In this document: positions 6,256 to 36,702 of the stretch, piece by piece | Layout of the letters: the number at the start of each line of letters is the position of its first letter | Numbering within the stretch: position 1 is the stretch's first letter | Source of the DNA: Escherichia phage MikeNSara | Sequence record: OR896827.1 | Reading direction: 5' to 3' (one strand) | DNA: 50,759 nucleotides | The notes under the pieces: model-generated | Seen by the model: the letters and a program-made list of their open reading frames with translations, nothing else | Told to the model about the DNA's origin: nothing | Database searches by the model: none | Made by a program: the position numbers and the translations under genes

Positions 6256-7227
6256 ATGACTAAAAAATATGATGAACTAGATGCTACGATTGTGGCGAAT
6301 CATTTGCAGATTCAGGGTGTTAAGTCCGACGCTTCTGATATGGGTATTTGGACCGCTCAAGAGCTACACAAGATCCGCTCTACCGCATACGAGAAAGAGT
6401 ATCCGGCAGGTTCCGCGCTTCGCGTATTCCCTGTAACAAACGAGCTTTCTGATACTGACAAGACTTTCGAATATCAGACTTTTGATAAGGTTGGCTACGC
6501 GAAAATTATCGCCGACTACACCGATGATCTGCCGACTGTGGACGCGTTGATGACTTCTGAGTTTGGCAAAGTGTTCCGCCTGGGTAACGCTTATCTGATC
6601 TCCATTGATGAGATTAAAACAGGTCAGCGAACTGGCAAGAGCCTGTCAACTCGCAAGGCTAACGCTGCGCAAAATGCGCATGATCAGTTGATTAACTTCC
6701 TGGTGTTCAAAGGTTCCAAGCCTCATAAGATCGTTTCCGTTTTCGATCATCCTAACCTTACGAAAATTGTTTCTAAAGGCTGGATGAGCCAGGACGGCAA
6801 TACCAAGTTCCCGGAAGTGGCAAGCGATGAACTGGAGGCCGCAATCGAAACGATCGAGGAAGTAACCAAAGGTCAGCACCGCGCGACCAATATCCTGATC
6901 CCGCCGTCCATGCGCAAAGTCCTGACGGTTCGAATGGAAAATACCACTGAAAGTTATCTGGAATACTTCCAGAAGCAAAACGGCGGTATCACTATCGACT
7001 CTATCGCAGAGCTTGAGGATATTGACGGCAAAGGTACGAAAGGTTGCTTGGTTTACGAAAAAGATCCAATGAACATGAGCATTGAGATTCCAGAAGCGTT
7101 TAACATGCTTCCGGCGCAGCCAAAAGACCTACATTTCAAGGTTCCTTGCACTTCCAAGTGTACTGGCCTTACGATTTATCGTCCGTTTACGATGGTGCTC
7201 ATTACCGGCTTGAAAAAAGCTGAGTAA
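6256..7227 (+). CDS. major capsid protein
   Basis: 323-aa ORF with strong RBS GGAGG, bracketed by intrinsic terminators (high-expression unit); position in head module. Confidence 0.65.
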   Translation: MTKKYDELDATIVANHLQIQGVKSDASDMGIWTAQELHKIRSTAYEKEYPAGSALRVFPVTNELSDTDKTFEYQTFDKVGYAKIIADYTDDLPTVDALMTSEFGKVFRLGNAYLISIDEIKTGQRTGKSLSTRKANAAQNAHDQLINFLVFKGSKPHKIVSVFDHPNLTKIVSKGWMSQDGNTKFPEVASDELEAAIETIEEVTKGQHRATNILIPPSMRKVLTVRMENTTESYLEYFQKQNGGITIDSIAELEDIDGKGTKGCLVYEKDPMNMSIEIPEAFNMLPAQPKDLHFKVPCTSKCTGLTIYRPFTMVLITGLKKAE

Positions 7228-23303: not shown

Positions 23304-23336
23304 AAAAATCCCCGCACAAGCGGGGATTTTTTTATT
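23304..23336. terminator. bidirectional terminator between ssb and convergent tail fibre gene
   Basis: AAAAATCCCCGC-ACAA-GCGGGGATTTTTTT. Confidence 0.75.
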
Positions 23337-25467
23337 CTGTATCTGTTGGATTGTTGATTAATTTCGCTACCGCTTTTTTTAGATCCTCTATCTCTTTCTC
23401 CATTTTCTCAATTTTGTTTCCCATGTAGACCATAGCGCAAGCCATATCAGCCATTATAACGTTATTGTCAAGAGCTAGTGTATCATCTGCTTTGTCAACC
23501 ACAATCTGACGATCCACATATTCTTCACCTTCATCATTAACGCCTATAACATCTGCAAAAATGTCCCCTCCAGGTATTAGCTTTACATATTCAGGATCTA
23601 TTTTTAACAGATCCTGCGCTATCATCCCGAATCGCTGGATGTTGCTTCCATTGTATTTAAACATTGTCGGCATCCACTGCATAACGCGATCATAGCTTTC
23701 CTTTCCATCTGTATAAATTATATCGTGCTTTAAATCTCTGTCAGAGTTAGCGGCCTTTTGAAAAATGAAATTTCCACTTGATGACCATGTGGTTATATCG
23801 TTTGATACTGGATTAAACTGGAAGTTACAGAAAAAATCATGATCACCACGAAGCCTTAACGAGCAAAGAGGCCATGCATTATTACCTTGTGAGATAAGAC
23901 CCCAAGTTGCACGAATCGGGTATCCACCAGTTGATTGTGTAGCCCAAGATAATCCAGGACACCAGCCGCCATCATTATTGGTTATAATTTCACCCCAAAC
24001 AAGAGCATTACCCCAATAATTTGGATCGTCCCACCCCATTTGTTGAGTTCTTCCGGTGTATTGAGCAGAATGCGTTCTGCCGTCAGGGTAAAACTTGTGC
24101 ATATAGCTTTGAACACCATGCTTATACAGTTCAATCCCAAAAGACTCAATTTGGGTAGAGCCACCTCTGATCAAACCTGCGATAGCGTAATCGTCATACC
24201 AGTTGTAACGACTTACACCAGTCCATGTGCTGATTGGTGGATTCATAATTGAAAACAATTGCGACGCATTTCGCTCATTCCCATCTACATAAATACCAGC
24301 CCCAGGAGCTAAGGAAATGCTTTTCGCTCCTGAAAAAGCACCATTTTCATTAAACTGATAATACTGTGATGCCCCATTATGAAATACGCCTATTGTATGC
24401 TTTCCTACGCCTAATTGAGTTTCAAAATAAGACTGAGAAGATCCAATATCTTCACCTTGTGTATTCTTTAGTTTTGAATGGTATATACCTGCGTTTGCAG
24501 TAGTTGCATTTTCCGTTTCGTTTTCAACATTAAGACTCAAAAACTTTGGTGAATGTTTTTCGCCAAGTCCTATATTGTTTCTGATGCCATTTGCGTCAAT
24601 AGCTCCAGTGCCACCAGAAGAAATAGCTAAAGGAACAGTTTCAAATGACCCATACCCTGATACGTCCCTCTGGAAAACAAGAAGACCATCATCTCTGATA
24701 ACAAGCCTATATTCTCTATTTCTAGAGTACAAGATAGTATGCACGTAGTCCTGAAAAAATGAATCAATGCTAAGCGTCCGGCGAGCTTCATCAATGTCAG
24801 AAAGATCTTTAAGGTTCTGATCCTTATGCACTAGATTTTCAGGATTTACCTGTTGCGCCCACTGGCGAGCTTCATCACGCGCAGTTTCAGCGCCAGCCTT
24901 TGCATTATTTGCCTCAACGGCATGATTGCCAGCAGTATCGCGCGCCAGTTCAGCCTGATCGCGAGCATCAAAAGCCTCCTGTTTAATAGCTTCCGTTTCT
25001 GCAATAGCAGAATCCTTTATCTGTTGAGTGTCATTTTTTAATTGTTCAGTGGCTGCGCGATCTGTTGCTACTTGTTGCGCAGATTCCTTAGCTTGATTCA
25101 CCAGATCCTTTAAGCCATCCAAATCAAAATCTTTAAAAAACTCTATTGCTTCTGCAATTTCTGTTTCCTTGCTCTGGTAATAACGCAAAGTTTCCGCTAC
25201 ATCCTGCGCAAGCCCGTCAACCGTTAACGAGTCATGAAGCAAGATCAGGTAATTTGTCTTCTGGACTACCGCGCCGCCAGTAGTAATTGCGCGAATGCTT
25301 GTATCGCTAATCACTTCTGTGATCACAGCAGCTTGCAAAGGTTGAGTGAGAAAGAAAATGGTTGCACCTGGGCGAATCAATGTTAATTGCTCGCGCCATT
25401 TTGTGTCGTAACCAGTTACATAACCTTGAGCGTCCATAGACGCTTGGCCTTGTCTGTAAATCGCCAT
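23332..25467 (-). CDS. tail fibre protein with C-terminal intramolecular chaperone (peptidase S74-like) domain
   Basis: C-terminal ~130 aa ([13 protein letters not shown]...[15 protein letters not shown]...coiled coil) resembles auto-cleaving chaperone domain of endosialidase/T5 L-shaped fibres; start moved from GTG 25491 to ATG 25467 (RBS AGGAGG); flanked by bidirectional terminators. Confidence 0.7.
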
Positions 25468-25484
25468 TTGTAAAATCCTCCTAA

Positions 25485-25504
25485 ATAGCACTTTTTGCTA
25501 ATGA
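25485..25504 (+). repeat. 20-bp motif copy (variant) next to tail-fibre start, no canonical -10
   Basis: ATAGCACTTTTTGCTAATGA; expected -10 position reads TTTCAA. Confidence 0.45.
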
Positions 25505-25573: not shown

Positions 25574-26503
25574 TTATAGTAGTGATTCGGGCTTGTAGAG
25601 TTTTCTTTCTACGCCCTGTTTAAAATTATCGTCAACAGGCATCATTATGTCAAGACCTCTTTCCTCTGCCGCGATTATCACATCACGATCATCTTTCCGG
25701 CAGACTACTCGCATTCTTCTTTCTCCTTTATATCTATGCGCAACCATTTCAAGATTTGAAGGAGTAAAGCAAGCCCACACCTCTTGACCAGTTGATAAAT
25801 GAACATGCTGGGAATCAACCCAATCAAGGCACAAATAGATCGTCTTATCTGTGCTACCTGTTTTAACAACAGATCCGCGCGTGTAGTCGCGAGCTAAAAA
25901 CCAATCCTTTCCATCCTCATCAATGAAAAGCACGTTACACATTTCATCATCAAGCCCGTCATCATGCACCAAGTGACAAGGTAGCGCGTGAATGTATCGA
26001 CCATCCTTGACGCCGCAATCATAATGACAACCTTCCGTCGGATATATCCCCTCATAAACGCTTAAAGGTGTGCGATCGAATTTTAATGTTTTTGCCATCA
26101 CTTTTTCGCAGCATTCATGACTTGCCTGTTTCCCGAACAAGTAACCAGAAGAACGCGAAGCGCGTTTGTTTGCTCTGATCCTGTAATCCTGCGGCACTTT
26201 TCCGAGGAAGCGACCCAAAATATTGATGGCCTCGCTGTAAGGTTCGCCAGTTAATTTCATTAACCAACCGATCCCCGTGTCGTTACCGCATACGTTGCAG
26301 ATAGCGCCGCCGTCGCCCTCTTCATTTAGCTTATCAGTCCATCTAAAACGATCCTTGCCGCCGCAGTGTGGGCAAGGCTGATGCTTTTTGTTGAAAACAT
26401 CGCTATGCAGTCCGCAAATGCTTTGTAGTGCTTCACGCCATAACCCCTTCATATATGGCAAAACATCTTCTTTCTGATAGGTCATAAAGTTTTCAGTATT
26501 CAT
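25574..26503 (-). CDS. DNA primase (zinc-ribbon + Toprim-like)
   Basis: CxxC...CxxC zinc ribbon (CPHCGGKDRFRW ... CNVCGN) followed by acidic Toprim-like region (DEDGKDW, DD); start moved to ATG 26503 with RBS GAGG; intrinsic terminator downstream. Confidence 0.7.
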   Translation of the reverse strand: MNTENFMTYQKEDVLPYMKGLWREALQSICGLHSDVFNKKHQPCPHCGGKDRFRWTDKLNEEGDGGAICNVCGNDTGIGWLMKLTGEPYSEAINILGRFLGKVPQDYRIRANKRASRSSGYLFGKQASHECCEKVMAKTLKFDRTPLSVYEGIYPTEGCHYDCGVKDGRYIHALPCHLVHDDGLDDEMCNVLFIDEDGKDWFLARDYTRGSVVKTGSTDKTIYLCLDWVDSQHVHLSTGQEVWACFTPSNLEMVAHRYKGERRMRVVCRKDDRDVIIAAEERGLDIMMPVDDNFKQGVERKLYKPESLL

Positions 26504-26558
26504 GGCAAACCTCAATAAAAAAGCCCAGCAAATATTATCATTTCGCTGGGCCTTATCA

Positions 26559-27035
26559 TTAGCTATTCGTGCTGTTATCACCTTTGTAGAATCGTCCGCC
26601 TGGTTCGTAGTCTGAATTTTTGACTACGCGCAACATTTCGTATTTGTCGCAACGGGTAGTAAGAGGCTTGCCGTTAGAATCAAACCGCAGATCTGGACGA
26701 CAAAATGATGCGCGGTATCCTTTGCACCCATTATATTTGTAGTCGTTATGCACCTTTTGTGCTCCAGCGGCTGAAATCATACCACGCTTTCGCCACTGGT
26801 TAACGACTTGCTGAGATACGCGCAGACGTCGGGCCATAGCAGGAACACCGCCGTAATACTCGATCAGAATGTCAAGGCGAGATTTCAGACTTGCTTTTAC
26901 CTCATCTCGCAGGATAAGAAATCCGGTTCGGTGTTTTCGTGGCTTTTTGTCTTTACCTCGTCGCGTTCCGTTGTTACCGTTAATAGTGCGCTTGTCGATC
27001 TCACCAGTAGATACTGCAATTCGTGCATCTTTCAT
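26559..27035 (-). CDS. HTH DNA-binding protein (Cro/YdaS-like)
   Basis: RBS GAGGTG; central helix-turn-helix GGVPAMARRLRVSQQVVNQWRKRG; basic N-terminus. Confidence 0.5.
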   Translation of the reverse strand: MKDARIAVSTGEIDKRTINGNNGTRRGKDKKPRKHRTGFLILRDEVKASLKSRLDILIEYYGGVPAMARRLRVSQQVVNQWRKRGMISAAGAQKVHNDYKYNGCKGYRASFCRPDLRFDSNGKPLTTRCDKYEMLRVVKNSDYEPGGRFYKGDNSTNS

Positions 27036-27122: not shown

Positions 27123-29120
27123 ATGATTCCAAATATCGAAAAACAAATATCAGCGTTAGGCGAGGCAGTAATAAAAAGCATCCAAGAGCGATTCACGGTT
27201 GGCAATATAGTGCCTTATCCTTATCAGTGCGTTGCGTATGCCGAGATCGCAAAGCGCATGAAAAACTATGAGCATCCTTTCTTTGTTAAGGCTTCTGTGT
27301 CGGCTGGCAAAACATTGATGTTTGCGATGGTTGCGGCGCAATGCCGCAAAATGGGATTGAAAATGATGGTCCTTGCTCGCCAGGCTGAAATTGTTGATCA
27401 GGATTCGGAAGAGATCAGCAATCTTGGCGTGCCAAACTCAATCTATTGCGCCGGACTGAAAACAAAAAGCGCATACTTTCCGATCGTAGTCGGTTCTGAG
27501 GGCACTGTAGTAAACGGATTGTTTAAGTCTTTAGGTGATTATGTTCCGCACGTTATCGGTATTGATGAATGTCACCAGGTGGATTGGGAGGATCTCGCGG
27601 ACGCGATAGAAAATAATGAATCTTACCAGCAGATGACCACTAAGAAGGATTTGCCTGTACTGATTGGAGAAGAACAGCAATTTGATTCCAATGGCGATCC
27701 AATGTTCGGAACAGGGCGCACACAGTACACGGTAATAATCATGGAAATGATGCGCAGGTGTCGCGAGGCATACGGGCACGAATTGCGAATATTCGGTATG
27801 ACTGGATCTGAATTTCGCGGCGTGGTTCCAATACTGGTTGAAGATAAGAACAAAAAGGGATTCTGGCGTGAGCAGGTGACTAACATAGACACAAACTACT
27901 TAATCAAATTCGGTTCTGTAGTGCCAACAAATTTCGGCGACGTAGGCGACCTGGGGTATGACCTTTCAGAGTTCGAAGCCAGTAGCGAGGATGGCGTTTC
28001 AGACTTTGACGCTAAAACATTGCGCAAGATGGAAGAAAAAATCCATCAAGACGCAACAATGACACAGAAAATCATGGCTAAAGTCCATGAGATATGCAAA
28101 GACAGGAACGGAGTTTTAGTTACATGCGCAGGGGAAAGACACTGCAAGGAGGCCGCCGCCGCACTGCCGCCAGGCGTTGAATACAGGATCATAACTGGCA
28201 AGACTGGAGATAATCAGCGTAAAGAGTGGCTGAGGGAGGCATACGAGGGAAAAGTAAAATACATCTTCCAGGTACAGGCGCTTACCACTGGCGTTAACGT
28301 TCCGTTTTGGGATACTTCTGTAATACTGAGAAAGATAGGATCTCTAACATTGCTTATCCAGCTTTTGGGGCGCGGTATGCGACTGCTTAAGCAATGGCAC
28401 ATTGAGCAGGGATTCAAGAAAAAAGACCATCTTGTATTGGATTTTGCCGGTACTATGGATGAGTTAGGGGATTTGTATTTCGATCCAATCCTTGAGCAAG
28501 CGCAATTCCAAAAGAGATTTACAAACGGGAAAGAGCCTAAGACTTGTCCGATATGTGGAACGCTAAACAGCTTTTACGCTCGCCGATGTATGCACGTAGA
28601 CGATAACGGGAAGAGATGCGAGCATTTTTGGACTTACAGAATTTGCGAGGACCAGGTAGATCCGAGAACGAAAAAGATAATCAAGCGCGGTTGCGGAACA
28701 AAAAACGACGTAGTGGCGAGAGTATGCCGTTGTTGCGATATTTCTCTTGTCGATCCTAACGAGAAGTTAAGCGGCAAGCACTACACCAAAAACGATTGGT
28801 GCAACGTTAAATCTTTCCGCGTTGATATGACGAAAAACCAGAAAGGAATTGTTTTTTGCTATGAGCTTGAGGCCAACGGCGACACGTTCAAGGCATACGA
28901 AAGATTTTTCCCTGAGTCAGAAAGCAACATTTGCCGTACGATATGGAGAAAAATAGCATTGCAGCACATACCGGATCGCAAGATTGCTGGTATGGTGGCG
29001 AGCTATAGAAATGCGCGCAAAATAATGTCATACGCTCATCACATCATGCCTCCTGTACGCGTAACGCATCGCAAAAACGGCAAAGGTGAGGATAACATTG
29101 CAAAACGGGAGTTTGTTTAA
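27123..29120 (+). CDS. superfamily 2 DNA helicase (DExH) with C-terminal zinc fingers
   Basis: Walker A-like SAGKT, DExH box (GIDECHQ), C-terminal Cys clusters (CPICG, CRCC); preceded by motif-type promoter. Confidence 0.8.
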   Translation: MIPNIEKQISALGEAVIKSIQERFTVGNIVPYPYQCVAYAEIAKRMKNYEHPFFVKASVSAGKTLMFAMVAAQCRKMGLKMMVLARQAEIVDQDSEEISNLGVPNSIYCAGLKTKSAYFPIVVGSEGTVVNGLFKSLGDYVPHVIGIDECHQVDWEDLADAIENNESYQQMTTKKDLPVLIGEEQQFDSNGDPMFGTGRTQYTVIIMEMMRRCREAYGHELRIFGMTGSEFRGVVPILVEDKNKKGFWREQVTNIDTNYLIKFGSVVPTNFGDVGDLGYDLSEFEASSEDGVSDFDAKTLRKMEEKIHQDATMTQKIMAKVHEICKDRNGVLVTCAGERHCKEAAAALPPGVEYRIITGKTGDNQRKEWLREAYEGKVKYIFQVQALTTGVNVPFWDTSVILRKIGSLTLLIQLLGRGMRLLKQWHIEQGFKKKDHLVLDFAGTMDELGDLYFDPILEQAQFQKRFTNGKEPKTCPICGTLNSFYARRCMHVDDNGKRCEHFWTYRICEDQVDPRTKKIIKRGCGTKNDVVARVCRCCDISLVDPNEKLSGKHYTKNDWCNVKSFRVDMTKNQKGIVFCYELEANGDTFKAYERFFPESESNICRTIWRKIALQHIPDRKIAGMVASYRNARKIMSYAHHIMPPVRVTHRKNGKGEDNIAKREFV

Positions 29121-29539
29121 TGGCTATAACTGATAAAGGCGATTATCTTGAGTTTTACGAAAGGGATCCAACCGACACGAGAAGGGAAGTTAATCACCAG
29201 ATAGATAGTTTTCAGTGGTTGACTTATGCTCATCCTTATTTGCTGGCGTGGCATACGGTAAACGAGAATGAGAAGTCTAAAGCAACGGCGATGATTGATC
29301 AGCAGTCCGGCTTGGTTAAGGGAGTAAGCGATTTCATCATCCTGATTGGTTTAAACGGAAAATACCCCTTTGCAGCGATTGAGATCAAACGAGTGAATAA
29401 ATCAGGCAAGGGGAAAGCATCACCAGTCAGCGATGAACAAAAGGCTTTTTTGCGTCGCGTTCGCAGCTTAGGAGGATTCGCTGCGGTAGCCTACGGATTC
29501 AATCAGTTTAAGTTGGCTATTGAATACATGCTTAAATAG
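29120..29539 (+). CDS. VRR-NUC domain nuclease
   Basis: TAATG overlap with helicase; PD-(D/E)XK core GVSDFIILIG...AIEIK and SDEQKAFL typical of VRR-NUC. Confidence 0.65.
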   Translation: MAITDKGDYLEFYERDPTDTRREVNHQIDSFQWLTYAHPYLLAWHTVNENEKSKATAMIDQQSGLVKGVSDFIILIGLNGKYPFAAIEIKRVNKSGKGKASPVSDEQKAFLRRVRSLGGFAAVAYGFNQFKLAIEYMLK

Positions 29540-33866: not shown

Positions 33867-34057
33867 TCCATACGCTTTACCGTAACCAGTAATACACCAT
33901 CATCATTGCATAAAACATGTTCAGTGGTGCTAAAAGCGCGCATATCTGAATAAAGTAGCGTAAGTAAAGCATGAATAAAATCCTCATGTGATATTGAATT
34001 TACGGCGCAGTGCTTCAAGATCTTGTCTATTAGCTTTTGCCTGGAACAATTCATCAT
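33863..34057 (-). CDS. hypothetical protein (uncertain)
   Basis: ORF whose stop is the TAG inside the 20-bp motif, as for other genes; GGGAG upstream of ATG; overlaps 3' end of 33984..34379 by 74 nt. Confidence 0.3.
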   Translation of the reverse strand: MMNCSRQKLIDKILKHCAVNSISHEDFIHALLTLLYSDMRAFSTTEHVLCNDDGVLLVTVKRME

Positions 34058-34379
34058 CGCCCATCTCCCCTATTCTCGCCATATCCCTGATCCAGTCGTT
34101 GCGCATACCATCCAGGCTATACAATTCGAATCCGAAAGGCCGCTTTGATGATCCTTTGGACCAGTATTTTCCGCAGACCCCATCTATATAACCAGCCGTC
34201 ATCATTCTTGCGCAAAATTCCTTAGATGCAAGGCTGGCGAACATTCGCGGCGTAAGTCCGGCGGCCCGCGCGAGCCGCTCGCATTCTCTATGCTGATAGA
34301 TAAATTTGGCTATGTGCTGCCTGTTAAACCAGTCGTATGACTCACACCATTTATACAGATCAAGCAAAAACATAATCAT
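33984..34379 (-). CDS. hypothetical protein
   Basis: ATGA overlap with upstream ATPase gene stop. Confidence 0.5.
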   Translation of the reverse strand: MIMFLLDLYKWCESYDWFNRQHIAKFIYQHRECERLARAAGLTPRMFASLASKEFCARMMTAGYIDGVCGKYWSKGSSKRPFGFELYSLDGMRNDWIRDMARIGEMGDDELFQAKANRQDLEALRRKFNIT

Positions 34380-35956
34380 CCCAGCAGTATTGGATTGACA
34401 AAAATAACACCATTAATCACGCAAACATAATTTCTTTCTTCCAGCATTGGAAGCAAGTGCCCTTCTATCCTCTTCATTACGCCAGCTTGACCAACGAAAG
34501 GTTTTACCTTTCTCGCTGATTCGTACAGGGCGCGAATATTCAGAATCCCTTTATTAGCCTTGCCGTGTCTAGTGATCAATTCAATCAATTTGCCCATTTC
34601 AGCATCATCACCAGCATAACCAGAAGCATTGGCGGCGCTAATGTATGTTTTGCTCAATTCCTGAAACATGATCAGCGCCTCTTGCATTGTTTCCACGTCG
34701 ATCTCTTTCGACTTCTGCGGGTATCCAGCAGGATTAAACCAATTGCGGATAACATGCAGGACGGAAGCAAGCCTGATCACCTGTTTATCCATTTTACCCA
34801 GCGCACCGCGTAACATTGTATGAGAATACTTTCCGCCGTCTGCAAGATGCGGTTCCATATCCTGGCGAGCAATGTTGAGCACTCGCATAGCTGAACGGCT
34901 TATTTTCAGCGATATATTTGATTCGCTCATGATGTTATGCACCAATTGATAATATTGGGCCTTCAATTCAGGATCCACCGCCTCATAGGTAGAATCACCA
35001 TTTTCATCAATGAATGAGCGACGGCCTAAGAATGATTCCTCACGGACCAACAAAAAGCGCTCACTCACACCGATACCGCGCGATCCAGCGTCCATGATTC
35101 CGCTTATCGTTTCATCCTGGGCTATAACGCTCATACATCCAAGCGCGCGAAAACTCATGTTATTGTCAGCATTAGCACGGGCAATTGATACGTGACCATT
35201 ATCCCACGCCTTAAGCACTAGCTCGCTGTTAGTCTTCCTTTCGCTATTGGCATAGGTCAAGCCTAACAGGCTGTTAATACTTGTTGCTTCGTCAGATATT
35301 ACGGCAAAGTTACCTTGCTTGTTGTTGATTTTCGCCAAGCCTTCTGGAGTGGTATCTGAAACAGGGAAAGTTATATCACACATCTTTTCCAGCTTCTCCT
35401 CCAGATCCTCTTTTTCCTGGTATAGAGATTCCATATCAGCGCCTGATCTTTCGCTTTTCATCTCCTTTGCAAGACCTGCCAACTTTGCCTGTATTTTCTT
35501 TCTTTCCTTGCGGCGTTGCTCGTTGATCTTCTCAACTTCCGCAATCATCGGAGCAATAGCCATACTGTTGATCGCAGATTTACCAGTTGACGGCGGCTGG
35601 CTTGTAACGACGTAAAGCGCAGTCGGCTGATCGGTTCCGTGATAGTCAACCGTAAAGCGTCCAAGCATAGCGGCAGAAATGCAGCCGATAAAGTGCATGT
35701 AAGCCGATGATTCAGGAAATTGAACGGATCGCGCAATACTGCGTGATAACTTGCCGACAACATCAATATCATTACCAAGAGAAATAACGGGGTAGCGATC
35801 GTGACCGCTATTTACATCCTTCACGTCGCCCCAAAAGCTGGACGACTGGCGATAGCCGTTAGCCTGAATTGATACGCGAACTGGTGAAAGGTTCTGGCTT
35901 TCAGCCATAGCGATTATTTGCTGTGGAGTTAATTTGTTCGTTTCTAATGAAAACAT
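34376..35956 (-). CDS. P-loop ATPase (DUF3987-like, putative replication/helicase-associated)
   Basis: Walker A-like SQPPSTGKSA and Walker B-like FAVISDEA; 526 aa; RBS AAGGAG; motif promoter upstream. Confidence 0.5.
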   Translation of the reverse strand: MFSLETNKLTPQQIIAMAESQNLSPVRVSIQANGYRQSSSFWGDVKDVNSGHDRYPVISLGNDIDVVGKLSRSIARSVQFPESSAYMHFIGCISAAMLGRFTVDYHGTDQPTALYVVTSQPPSTGKSAINSMAIAPMIAEVEKINEQRRKERKKIQAKLAGLAKEMKSERSGADMESLYQEKEDLEEKLEKMCDITFPVSDTTPEGLAKINNKQGNFAVISDEATSINSLLGLTYANSERKTNSELVLKAWDNGHVSIARANADNNMSFRALGCMSVIAQDETISGIMDAGSRGIGVSERFLLVREESFLGRRSFIDENGDSTYEAVDPELKAQYYQLVHNIMSESNISLKISRSAMRVLNIARQDMEPHLADGGKYSHTMLRGALGKMDKQVIRLASVLHVIRNWFNPAGYPQKSKEIDVETMQEALIMFQELSKTYISAANASGYAGDDAEMGKLIELITRHGKANKGILNIRALYESARKVKPFVGQAGVMKRIEGHLLPMLEERNYVCVINGVIFVNPILLG

Positions 35957-35984
35957 TCGTTAGCTTCTCCTTTGTGGGCCGTAA

Positions 35985-36028
35985 ATTTTAACGGCCCAAT
36001 ACTACCCCGTTTTGTCAAAAAGTGCTAT
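35985..36028 (-). promoter_or_regulatory. motif-type promoter cassette (leftward, variant)
   Basis: GTTTTGTCAAAAAGTGCTAT at 36009..36028, 18-bp spacer, -10 TAAAAT; ATPase gene ATG 35956 downstream. Confidence 0.5.
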
Positions 36029-36246
36029 TTGATCCGCTCTATTGCAACCAGAAGTCGATCAGGCTGGCGGTCGCTGTAGCATTCTCCTGTAATCCCATCC
36101 TTAAACGTAAAGTAAAGCGCCTTATGATATGAAAAACCAATCAGCCAACCTACCGCCGTTTTTTTGATGGGCCTGACTATATCGCCAGGCTTGAAAGTCT
36201 TTGTGGTAGAATGCGTTACTTTGTAACGGTTTTCACTGTTTATCAC
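36025..36246 (-). CDS. hypothetical protein
   Basis: GTG start overlapping upstream stop (GTGA), RBS GAGGG; stop is TAG of motif 36009..36028. Confidence 0.45.
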   Translation of the reverse strand: MINSENRYKVTHSTTKTFKPGDIVRPIKKTAVGWLIGFSYHKALYFTFKDGITGECYSDRQPDRLLVAIERIK

Positions 36247-36629
36247 AGATATTTGCCCTCAAAAAGATAACAGCCGCCAGCAGAGAATCCGACCTCTTCA
36301 CGGTACAGGTTCCAGCGGTCGCCGCACTCATCAAAAACATAACCCGCAACGCTTCCAAGCGGTCGCCCTTTCTCGATCTGGTATCGCTTGCCCTGCTTAA
36401 AGTGCTTTTTGCACGGCATGTTATGATCTACAAACGTGCAAAGAACGGTTTTTGTGTTAATGGCGCGGTAATCATCTCGGTTTGCTGGAAGCCAGCGGCT
36501 ACCCTTAACAAGCGTCTTAACCTGGAACTCTTCCACCTCGATCACATCATTACTTCCTGCAATCTTCTGATAAACCGTTTTAAAACGTCCTTTCATCAAT
36601 ACGTTGGTTTCATTACAGATAACATTCAT
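36243..36629 (-). CDS. hypothetical protein
   Basis: RBS AAGGAG; ~30 nt downstream of motif promoter 36659..36702. Confidence 0.5.
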   Translation of the reverse strand: MNVICNETNVLMKGRFKTVYQKIAGSNDVIEVEEFQVKTLVKGSRWLPANRDDYRAINTKTVLCTFVDHNMPCKKHFKQGKRYQIEKGRPLGSVAGYVFDECGDRWNLYREEVGFSAGGCYLFEGKYL

Positions 36630-36658: not shown

Positions 36659-36702
36659 ATTATGCCAGGTTTTTACACCTGGCTTTTAACAAAAAGTGCT
36701 AT
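36659..36702 (-). promoter_or_regulatory. motif-type promoter cassette (leftward)
   Basis: 20-mer 36683..36702, hairpin-forming 18-bp spacer, -10 CATAAT; gene ATG 36629 downstream. Confidence 0.55.

What the first reader, a model, noticed from the sequence alone, without database searches (positions are those of the whole stretch)
34376..35956. Large P-loop ATPase of unknown role heading the leftward early operon
The 526-aa protein has Walker A (PPSTGKSA) and Walker B (VISDEA) motifs and resembles proteins that accompany phage primases, although here it is encoded about 9 kb from the primase/helicase pair. It may be a replicative helicase or loader, or an ATPase involved in DNA entry or defence evasion.
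Basis: inference. Interest (0 to 1): 0.4.

Follow-up and report, generated by a model that had tools for sequence, protein, structure and literature searches.

The report
MCM-like DUF3987 helicase of T1-like phage
The gene is real and encodes a DUF3987-family, MCM-like ring-helicase ATPase that most likely unwinds the phage's DNA at the replication fork; near-identical phages already annotate it as a DNA helicase, so it is an ordinary, known kind of gene.

The parts
34376..35956 (-). CDS of 526 aa plus stop codon: DUF3987-family, MCM-like AAA+ helicase, at the genome position of T1 gene 9
   Evidence: ORF and translation. Pfam PF13148 at 151 bits, E 5.9e-44. PHROG 2373 'DNA helicase', E 3.6e-244. 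100% protein identity to the phage Kalemo 'DNA helicase'. T1 ST9 'DNA helicase' occupies the same genome position.
35669..35956 (-). N-terminal helical domain, residues 1-96, function unknown; it replaces the OB/zinc N-tier of true MCMs
   Evidence: The AF2 model shows secondary structure of helices only (11-21, 25-33, 66-78, 82-96). There is no Pfam hit in this region.
35576..35599 (-). Walker A / P-loop, QPPSTGKS (residues 120-127)
   Evidence: Q120, P121, G125 and K126 are 96/96 in alignment A3. K126 is invariant in A4, which reaches 22% identity.
35384..35575 (-). Long antiparallel helical hairpin (residues 128-191) extending the Walker A helix; a family-specific insertion
   Evidence: The model shows helices 126-168 and 172-191 at pLDDT 87-98. 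The region is present throughout A1 and A3 and aligns to N4 gp43 in hhalign.
35285..35308 (-). Walker B strand and motif, FAVISDEA (residues 217-224); E223 is the invariant acid
   Evidence: Strand 217-221 in the model. S221 and E223 are 96/96. D222 is D in 47 and A in 48. Distant members carry hhSSEQG.
35147..35194 (-). Predicted pre-sensor-1 beta-hairpin (residues 255-270) with invariant R260
   Evidence: Strands 255-258 and 267-270 in the model. R260 is invariant in A3 and A4. Assigning it to the MCM PS1 hairpin is inference from motif order.
35111..35128 (-). Sensor-1 region, VIAQDE (residues 277-282), at the end of strand beta-4
   Evidence: Strand 273-279 in the model. A279 is 96/96 and Q280 95/96 in A3; Q280 is invariant in A4.
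35054..35065 (-). SERF (residues 298-301): putative arginine finger R300, placed like the MCM 'SRF' motif just before strand beta-5
   Evidence: R300 is invariant in A3 and A4. Strand 301-305 follows it. The equivalence to MCM is inferred, not superposed residue by residue.
34742..34972 (-). AAA+ lid (helical) subdomain, residues 329-405, with R383/K388 as sensor-2 candidates
   Evidence: Helices 329-343, 354-371, 380-387 and 389-405 in the model. K388 is invariant; R383 is 83/96.
34379..34609 (-). C-terminal winged-helix domain, residues 450-526
36016..36030 (-). Copy of the phage's conserved intergenic direct repeat, AAATAGCACTTTTTG, beginning 74 nt upstream of the ATG. Its TAG is the stop codon of the upstream 73-aa gene.
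   Evidence: 23 copies in the window against 3.7 expected, all oriented with transcription. Stop-codon use. The same 21-nt repeat is described in phage TLS (PMC11447400).
35985..35990 (-). -10-like hexamer TAAAAT, in the same register (25 nt after the repeat core) as CATAAT/TATAAT in the other copies
   Evidence: Promoter function is inferred, not shown.
35975..35998 (-). GC-rich hairpin (GGGCCGT...ACGGCCC) between the repeat and the ribosome-binding site, with no T-run after it
   Evidence: inverted repeat I8. Its role is unknown.
33984..34379 (-). 131-aa ORF whose ATG overlaps the helicase stop codon (ATGA), so it is probably translationally coupled. Function unknown; found after the helicase gene only in Drexlerviridae-type loci.
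   Evidence: Coordinates. PHROG 2794, unknown function. Present 6-23 bp downstream of the helicase match in 6 Drexlerviridae-type loci and absent in distant relatives.
25574..26581 (-). Stand-alone P4-alpha/T7-type zinc-ribbon primase, the putative partner of the helicase. The true start is probably internal to the listed ORF.
   Evidence: Pfam Zn_Ribbon_Prim, E 5e-15. PHROG 510 'DNA primase', matching only the first half of a 667-position profile. Homologues lie next to the DUF3987 gene in distant relatives. The partnership is inferred.

Best explanation
The gene encodes the phage's own hexameric replicative DNA helicase, of the DUF3987 family. This is a divergent MCM-like (superfamily 6, AAA+) motor.

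Shown here: family membership, an MCM-like ATPase fold with a C-terminal winged helix, invariant catalytic residues, and linkage or fusion to primases and replication genes in relatives.

Inferred mechanism:
- The protein assembles into a ring.
- ATP is bound at subunit interfaces by K126 and E223 of one subunit and R300 of the neighbour.
- ATP hydrolysis moves the R260 hairpin along single-stranded DNA and unwinds the duplex.
- The helicase works with the stand-alone zinc-ribbon primase (25574-26581) and the host Pol III holoenzyme, because the phage encodes no polymerase.
- Polarity may be 5'->3' on the lagging strand, as measured for the only characterised member (AgaPH) and as the DnaB-N and DnaG fusions suggest.
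- The winged helix and/or N-terminal domain may let it load itself at an origin that has not yet been mapped.
- The SF2 helicase with VRR-NUC would then serve fork remodelling and recombination.
For: - Family: Pfam DUF3987 at 151 bits against a cut-off of 27; PHROG 2373 'DNA helicase'.
- Model: AF2 pLDDT 91.1, pTM 0.89.
- Foldseek against the PDB: the top 50 hits are all MCM, best E 7e-6.
- Invariant residues down to 22% identity: K126, E223, R260, Q280, R300, E306 and K388.
- Gene context: in 81 loci (75 of them distant relatives at 31-40% identity, 6 Drexlerviridae-type), a homologue of this phage's primase was found in 46, typically 20-900 bp from the DUF3987 gene in the distant ones. The SF2 helicase was found in 69, followed by VRR-NUC, exonuclease, Erf and SSB. 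An annotated example is Shigella phage DS8 gp30-gp21.
- Domain fusions: DnaG CHC2 zinc ribbon + DUF3987 (P0255), DnaB N-domain + DUF3987 (P0285) and NrS-1 HBD + DUF3987 (P0364). Many phage primase/polymerase-DUF3987 fusions appear in BFVD.
- Literature: DUF3987 was assigned to SF6 replicative helicases with a C-terminal wHTH (PMC4889955). PriCT-DUF3987 AgaPH is an ATP/dATP-dependent 5'->3' helicase that is killed by Walker A/B mutations and binds its primase-polymerase (PMC11724360).
- Partner primase: the phage's primase matches only the primase half of a primase-helicase-length profile. It therefore lacks a fused helicase.
Against: - No experiment exists on this protein or on any T1-like orthologue.
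- In this phage the gene is not next to the primase (7.8 kb away).
- The canonical Walker B aspartate is not conserved in the family.
- The MCM N-terminal OB/zinc tier that organises true MCM rings is absent.
- No sequence-level match to any solved structure or to Pfam MCM was obtained here.
- Hexamer formation, polarity, the primase contact and the origin are all untested.
- No iterons were found near the gene.
- A second helicase (SF2, 27123-29120) is encoded. The TLS literature treats that one as the replication helicase.
Confidence: 0.65

Rival explanations
1. It is a recombination or repair motor rather than the fork helicase. On this reading it is an MCM-clade ring translocase that drives branch migration or recombination-dependent replication together with Erf, the exonuclease, SSB and the SF2/VRR-NUC pair. 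Analogues are ComM, RuvB and MCM8/9.
For: In distant relatives the gene belongs to one block with SF2 helicase, VRR-NUC, exonuclease VIII, Erf or Sak4-like annealase, and SSB. ComM and MCM8/9 are among the structural matches.
Confidence: 0.15
2. It is an origin-binding initiator or loader. It would use its winged helix to recognise and melt an origin and recruit the host DnaB, but would not itself travel with the fork.
For: The C-terminal winged helix resembles those of ORC/Cdc6. The phage encodes no recognisable lambda-O/P-type initiator or loader in the region examined.
Against: The ATPase core is closest to MCM motors, not to Cdc6/ORC/DnaA/DnaC-type initiators and loaders; the ORC/Cdc6 hits cover only 80-100 residues, the size of the WH domain. 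The invariant hairpin arginine and the demonstrated unwinding by AgaPH fit a translocase. No iterons or other origin-like repeats lie near the gene.
Confidence: 0.12
3. It is an ATPase for DNA entry or for evading host defence, as the first reader suggested as alternatives.
For: The only support is weak circumstantial context. The gene lies in a block of small accessory genes, and the 128-aa gene two positions upstream is the orthologue of the SECphi27 trigger of Mokosh type I.
Against: There is no PADLOC-type or anti-defence signature. All family, fold, fusion and context evidence points to replication. The gene is conserved across phages of many hosts as a core gene.
Confidence: 0.03

Closest known systems
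DUF3987 (PF13148) helicases, e.g. AgaPH (PriCT-DUF3987) of Seonamhaeicola sp. S2-3, and T1 gene 9 product
   Same: Strong Pfam match. Shares the Walker A lysine and Walker B glutamate, the C-terminal small winged-helix domain, and the link to primases. AgaPH is oligomeric, ATP/dATP-dependent, unwinds 5'->3' and binds its primase-polymerase (PMC11724360). T1 ST9 occupies the same genome position.
   Different: It has no PriCT domain; a 96-residue helical N-domain takes its place. The partner primase is a DnaG/P4-alpha-type zinc-ribbon primase, not an AEP, and is encoded 7.8 kb away. No biochemistry exists for this protein.
MCM replicative helicases (archaeal MCM, eukaryotic Mcm2-7; superfamily 6, AAA+)
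   Different: It has no N-terminal OB-fold/zinc tier. It carries a long helical hairpin after the Walker A helix. The Walker A is QPPSTGKS and the Walker B aspartate is not conserved. There is no sequence-level match to Pfam MCM here. The characterised DUF3987 member runs 5'->3', whereas MCM runs 3'->5' (established knowledge).
Phage N4 gp43 (dns), a DUF3987-like domain followed by an AEP primase
   Same: A distant relative of the ATPase region, including the hairpin insertion and the TPE motif. Kazlauskas et al. report it as essential for N4 replication (PMC4889955).
   Different: The similarity is very weak: Pfam 24.2 bits, below the cut-off of 27, and hhalign E 4e-4 with probability 34%. 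N4 gp43 is fused to a primase; this protein is not.
T7 gp4 / P4 alpha primase-helicases and DnaB-DnaG
   Same: The functional logic is the same: a ring helicase coupled to a zinc-ribbon primase. Some DUF3987 proteins carry the DnaB N-domain or a DnaG zinc ribbon.
   Different: The helicase fold differs. Those are RecA-type SF4 or SF3 helicases; this is an MCM-like AAA+ protein. Here helicase and primase are separate genes.

Membership tests
DUF3987 (Pfam PF13148) | Match to the family HMM above the curated gathering score | tested here: met
   151.2 bits against a cut-off of 27; E 5.9e-44; residues 81-430 cover profile positions 3-350 of 364.
DUF3987 (Pfam PF13148) | Conserved Walker A lysine and Walker B glutamate | tested here: met
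   K126 and E223 are invariant in 96 sequences (A3) and in 40 sequences reaching 22% identity (A4). D222 is not conserved.
DUF3987 (Pfam PF13148) | [quoted passage not shown] | tested here: met
DUF3987 (Pfam PF13148) | Genomic association with a primase, either fused or adjacent | tested here: inconclusive
   Met in relatives: a primase homologue was found in 46 of 81 loci, and fusions exist. Not met in this window, where the primase is 7.8 kb away.
DUF3987 (Pfam PF13148) | ATP-dependent DNA unwinding by an oligomer | not testable with these tools
   Shown only for AgaPH (PMC11724360).
MCM / superfamily 6 AAA+ helicases | AAA+ ATPase core of the MCM clade | tested here: met
MCM / superfamily 6 AAA+ helicases | MCM motif set: pre-sensor-1 hairpin with a basic residue, sensor 1, SRF-type arginine finger | tested here: inconclusive
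   Invariant R260, Q280 and R300 lie at the expected places in the predicted secondary structure. No residue-level superposition or model coordinates were available.
MCM / superfamily 6 AAA+ helicases | N-terminal OB-fold/zinc domain tier | tested here: not met
   Residues 1-96 are all-helical in the model. There is no zinc-binding motif and no MCM_N or MCM_OB Pfam hit.
MCM / superfamily 6 AAA+ helicases | Sequence match to Pfam MCM (PF00493) or to solved MCM chains | tested here: not met
   No MCM family appears at E<=1 in hmmscan. phmmer and profile searches of PDB sequences found none. Published HHsearch links DUF3987 to PF00493 at 98% probability for another member (PMC4889955).
DnaB-type (SF4, RecA-fold) replicative helicases | DnaB_C / RecA-like core | tested here: not met
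   No DnaB Pfam hit. The leading structural matches are AAA+ proteins, not RecA-fold proteins.
AAA+ helicase loaders and initiators (DnaC/DnaA/Cdc6/ORC) | ATPase core closest to the initiator/loader clade | tested here: not met

The most novel reading that the evidence does not exclude
T1-like phages may replicate with a self-loading, single-tier MCM-like ring helicase that runs 5'->3', opposite to cellular MCM. It would dock a separately encoded P4-alpha-type primase, perhaps through the family-specific helical hairpin or the N-domain, and would capture host Pol III. The phage would then be independent of DnaB/DnaC. This would be a bacterial-virus replisome built around an archaeo-eukaryotic-type motor used in a DnaB-like manner. 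The motor would have an atypical Walker B in which only the glutamate is fixed.
Probability: 0.3. Interest if true: 0.45.

Novelty: already known. Interest (0 to 1): 0.2.

Why it matters
T1-like phages (Drexlerviridae) are abundant, are widely used in defence-system screens, and are a classic laboratory contaminant, yet their replication machinery has not been dissected. Identifying gp9-type DUF3987 proteins as the likely fork helicase gives a concrete target for genetics and biochemistry. No DUF3987 protein was detectable among the PDB sequences searched here, so a structure would show how an MCM-like motor works without the N-terminal tier and possibly with reversed polarity. As a genome-scan finding it is routine: the gene is already annotated as a helicase in near-identical genomes.

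Tried and rejected
- Sequence searches of the PDB with the protein and with a 96-sequence profile gave only chance coiled-coil hits. The MCM relationship therefore rests on predicted-fold comparison and on published HHsearch.
- A repeat search of 33.4-37.6 kb found no iterons or origin-like arrays, so no origin can be assigned near the gene. A 27-nt imperfect inverted repeat inside the gene (78% complementary) is treated as chance.
- The sigma-70 consensus scan found no more promoter-like sites than shuffled sequence gives. It missed the repeat-associated -10 elements.
- Literature searches were unproductive for host dna-gene requirements of T1, for Drexlerviridae helicase escape mutants and for the repeat sequence itself.
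- The comparison with N4 gp43 was only marginal and is not used as membership evidence.
- The first locus scan with A3 returned only close Drexlerviridae relatives. It had to be repeated with the distant alignment A2.
- DnaB-type, SF3-type and loader-type assignments were considered and rejected on fold ranking.

Full report
**1. The observation**

The ORF exists as described: 34376..35956 on the minus strand, ATG start, 526 aa. An AAGGAG ribosome-binding site lies 10 nt upstream of the ATG. PPSTGKSA occupies residues 121-128 and VISDEA residues 219-224.

The window is a T1-like coliphage.
- The gene is 99.4% identical in DNA to phage vB_Eco_Sip and 99.2% to FritzSarasin/Bas04 (Drexlerviridae, Tempevirinae, Warwickvirus).
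- The window is about 96% identical to SECphi27 over most of its length.
- The protein is 100% identical to the "DNA helicase" of phage Kalemo and 99.8% identical to the SECphi27 protein.
- In T1 itself the same genome position holds ST9, annotated "DNA helicase", 522 aa.

**2. Position in the genome**

Minus-strand genes run from about 40.7 kb down to about 33.5 kb. This gene lies near the downstream end of that block. It is followed only by a 131-aa ORF whose ATG overlaps its stop codon (ATGA), and then by ORFs of 64 and 74 aa. It therefore does not head the leftward block.

It does have its own copy of the phage's conserved intergenic repeat, AAATAGCACTTTTTG.
- The repeat occurs 23 times in the window against 3.7 expected, always oriented with transcription.
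- The copy at 36016-36030 begins 74 nt upstream of the ATG.
- As in most other copies, a -10-like hexamer follows in a fixed register, here TAAAAT at 35985-35990.
- The same 21-nt repeat has been described in phage TLS, about 76 nt upstream of start codons. Its function is unproven (PMC11447400).

The gene may thus head a small sub-unit. Whether it is "early" cannot be judged from sequence. The primase ORF (25574-26581, Zn_Ribbon_Prim) is 7.8 kb away. The SF2 helicase (27123-29120, ResIII/Helicase_C), followed by a VRR-NUC gene, is 5.3 kb away.

**3. Family**

The protein matches Pfam DUF3987 (PF13148) at 151 bits against a cut-off of 27, covering nearly the whole profile. It matches PHROG 2373 "DNA helicase" at E 3.6e-244.

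A search of 1.84 billion cluster representatives found 6261 relatives at E<=1e-3. Longer members carry extra domains:
- P0255 has a DnaG-type CHC2 zinc ribbon.
- P0285 has the DnaB N-terminal domain.
- P0364 has an NrS-1-polymerase HBD-like domain.

The BFVD fold search returns many phage primase/polymerase-DUF3987 fusions.

**4. Fold**

An AlphaFold2 model built on 96 sequences is confident, with pLDDT 91.1 and pTM 0.89. Its layout is:
- a helical N-domain (residues 1-96);
- an alpha/beta ATPase core, in which the Walker A helix is extended into a long antiparallel helical hairpin (helices 126-168 and 172-191);
- a helical lid (329-405);
- a C-terminal winged helix (450-526).

By sequence alone nothing in the PDB matches, neither for the single protein nor for the profile. 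Pfam MCM is not hit. The protein also lacks the OB/zinc N-tier of true MCMs. It works like an MCM-type motor, but I do not file it as an MCM family member.

**5. Conservation**

In 96 relatives reaching 29% identity, Q120, P121, G125, K126, S221, E223, R260, A279, G296, R300, E306, R313 and K388 are invariant. In 40 sequences reaching 22% identity, including fusion proteins, K126, E223, R260, Q280, R300, E306 and K388 remain invariant.

Placed on the predicted secondary structure, these residues fall as follows:
- the P-loop (120-127);
- the end of the Walker B strand (E223);
- a beta-hairpin before sensor 1 (R260);
- the end of strand beta-4 (Q280);
- an S-E-R-F motif just before strand beta-5 (R300), which resembles the MCM SRF arginine finger.

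These equivalences are inferred from motif order, not from a residue-level superposition.

It is Asp in 47 and Ala in 48 of 96 relatives. When it is Ala, residue 225 is Asp or Glu in 47 of 48 cases. More distant members read hhSSEQG. Only the glutamate defines the motif in this family.

**6. Context in relatives**

I fetched loci for relatives that are 31-40% identical and mapped this phage's own replication proteins onto them by tblastn. Of the 81 loci (75 distant, 6 Drexlerviridae-type), a primase homologue was found in 46, typically 20-900 bp from the DUF3987 gene in the distant ones. The SF2 helicase was found in 69, usually within 0-3 kb, followed by VRR-NUC, exonuclease, Erf and SSB.

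The annotated genome of Shigella phage DS8 (Deseoctovirus) shows the full module: gp30 helicase, gp28 primase, gp26 DEAD-like helicase, gp23 exonuclease VIII, gp22 Erf and gp21 SSB. Drexlerviridae have the same genes, but the module is split. The DUF3987 gene lies beyond the Dam, exonuclease and lysis genes.

**7. Literature**

- Kazlauskas et al. (2016) assigned phage DUF3987 proteins to divergent SF6 (MCM-like) helicases with a C-terminal wHTH. They noted that these are often fused to or adjacent to AEP or DnaG primases, and proposed them as replicative helicases (PMC4889955).
- Kazlauskas et al. (2018) list DUF3987 among the ATPase domains that replace known helicase domains in AEP fusions (PMC5862659).
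- A 2025 study showed that a PriCT-DUF3987 protein (AgaPH) is oligomeric and unwinds 5'-tailed and forked DNA with 5'->3' polarity using ATP or dATP. Walker A and B mutations abolish the activity, and the protein binds its primase-polymerase (PMC11724360).
- The TLS paper mentions only the primase and the SF2 helicase as replication proteins. The T1-like literature therefore tends to overlook this gene.
- N4 gp43 (dns) is only a marginal relative in my tests.

**8. Mechanism**

Best-supported reading (confidence about 0.65): the protein is the phage's replicative ring helicase. The inferred steps are these.
- It assembles as a hexamer.
- ATP sites form at subunit interfaces, from K126 and E223 of one subunit and R300 of the neighbour.
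- The R260 hairpin contacts DNA in the central pore.
- It cooperates with the stand-alone zinc-ribbon primase. That primase matches only the primase half of a primase-helicase-length PHROG profile.
- It uses the host polymerase, because no polymerase gene is present. This point comes from the TLS paper and from the annotation of related genomes.
- The SF2 helicase plus VRR-NUC would then handle fork remodelling and recombination.

Polarity, self-loading through the winged helix, and the role of the helical hairpin are all inferences.

Rivals:
- a recombination or branch-migration motor (0.15);
- an initiator or loader that recruits DnaB (0.12);
- a DNA-entry or anti-defence ATPase (0.03, no support).

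**9. Verdict**

The gene is a known kind of protein and is already annotated as a helicase in near-identical genomes. The "heading the operon" and "unknown role" claims are not supported. Residual interest lies in the lack of any experimental work on T1-like replication. No solved DUF3987 structure was detectable in the PDB sequence searches here.

Noticed in passing
window 36243-36629 (-): This 128-aa ORF lies two genes upstream of the helicase. It is 99.2% identical to the SECphi27 128-aa protein of unknown function. A frameshift at codon 7 of that protein (SECphi27 position 6995) lets the phage escape Mokosh type I, and its expression is toxic in Mokosh-carrying cells (bioRxiv 10.1101/2022.08.27.505566). 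It matches PHROG 2684, unknown function.
   Followed up: partly
window, 23 sites (e.g. 25483, 29534, 36016, 36690, 39386, 40690, 42027, 42490, 43704, 45300): The 15-nt repeat AAATAGCACTTTTTG occurs 23 times (up to 3 mismatches) against 3.7 expected, always oriented with local transcription. Most copies are followed, 25 nt after the core, by a -10-like hexamer (CATAAT, TATAAT, TATAGT, TACATT), often with a GC-rich hairpin in between. The spacing from the repeat's TTG is too long for a standard -35 element. The repeat is known as a 21-nt direct repeat in phage TLS, with unproven function (PMC11447400).
   Followed up: partly
window, e.g. 36025-36027, 36699-36701, 1567-1569, 29537-29539: The TAG inside the repeat serves as the in-frame stop codon of the upstream gene in about 12 copies. 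Examples are the 522-aa ORF at 1-1569, the VRR-NUC gene, the 259-aa methyltransferase and the 73-aa gene before the helicase. Gene ends and the regulatory repeat are therefore fused.
   Followed up: partly
window 35285-35308 (-), protein residues 217-224: The Walker B aspartate of the family is not conserved. It is D in 47 and A in 48 of 96 relatives. Ala at 222 is accompanied by Asp or Glu at 225 in 47 of 48 cases. More distant DUF3987 proteins read hhSSEQG. Only E223 is invariant.
   Followed up: partly
window 33984-34379 (-): The ATG of this 131-aa ORF overlaps the helicase stop codon (ATGA). Some records annotate it as 'YdbL'. It matches PHROG 2794 (unknown function) and has no Pfam hit. 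It follows the helicase gene only in Drexlerviridae-type loci.
   Followed up: partly
window 23332-25491 (-): This 719-aa ORF lies between the SSB/Erf genes and the primase, at the position of the lateral tail fibre gene of FritzSarasin (870 aa) and T1 (ST26). Similarity to SECphi27 breaks off between about 23.3 and 25.1 kb. This suggests a swapped receptor-binding gene.
   Followed up: no
window 35975-35998 (-): A GC-rich hairpin (GGGCCGT-N8-ACGGCCC) lies between the repeat and the helicase ribosome-binding site and overlaps the -10-like TAAAAT. No T-run follows it, so it is not a classical terminator. In other copies of the module the hairpin sits between the repeat and the -10 hexamer.
   Followed up: no
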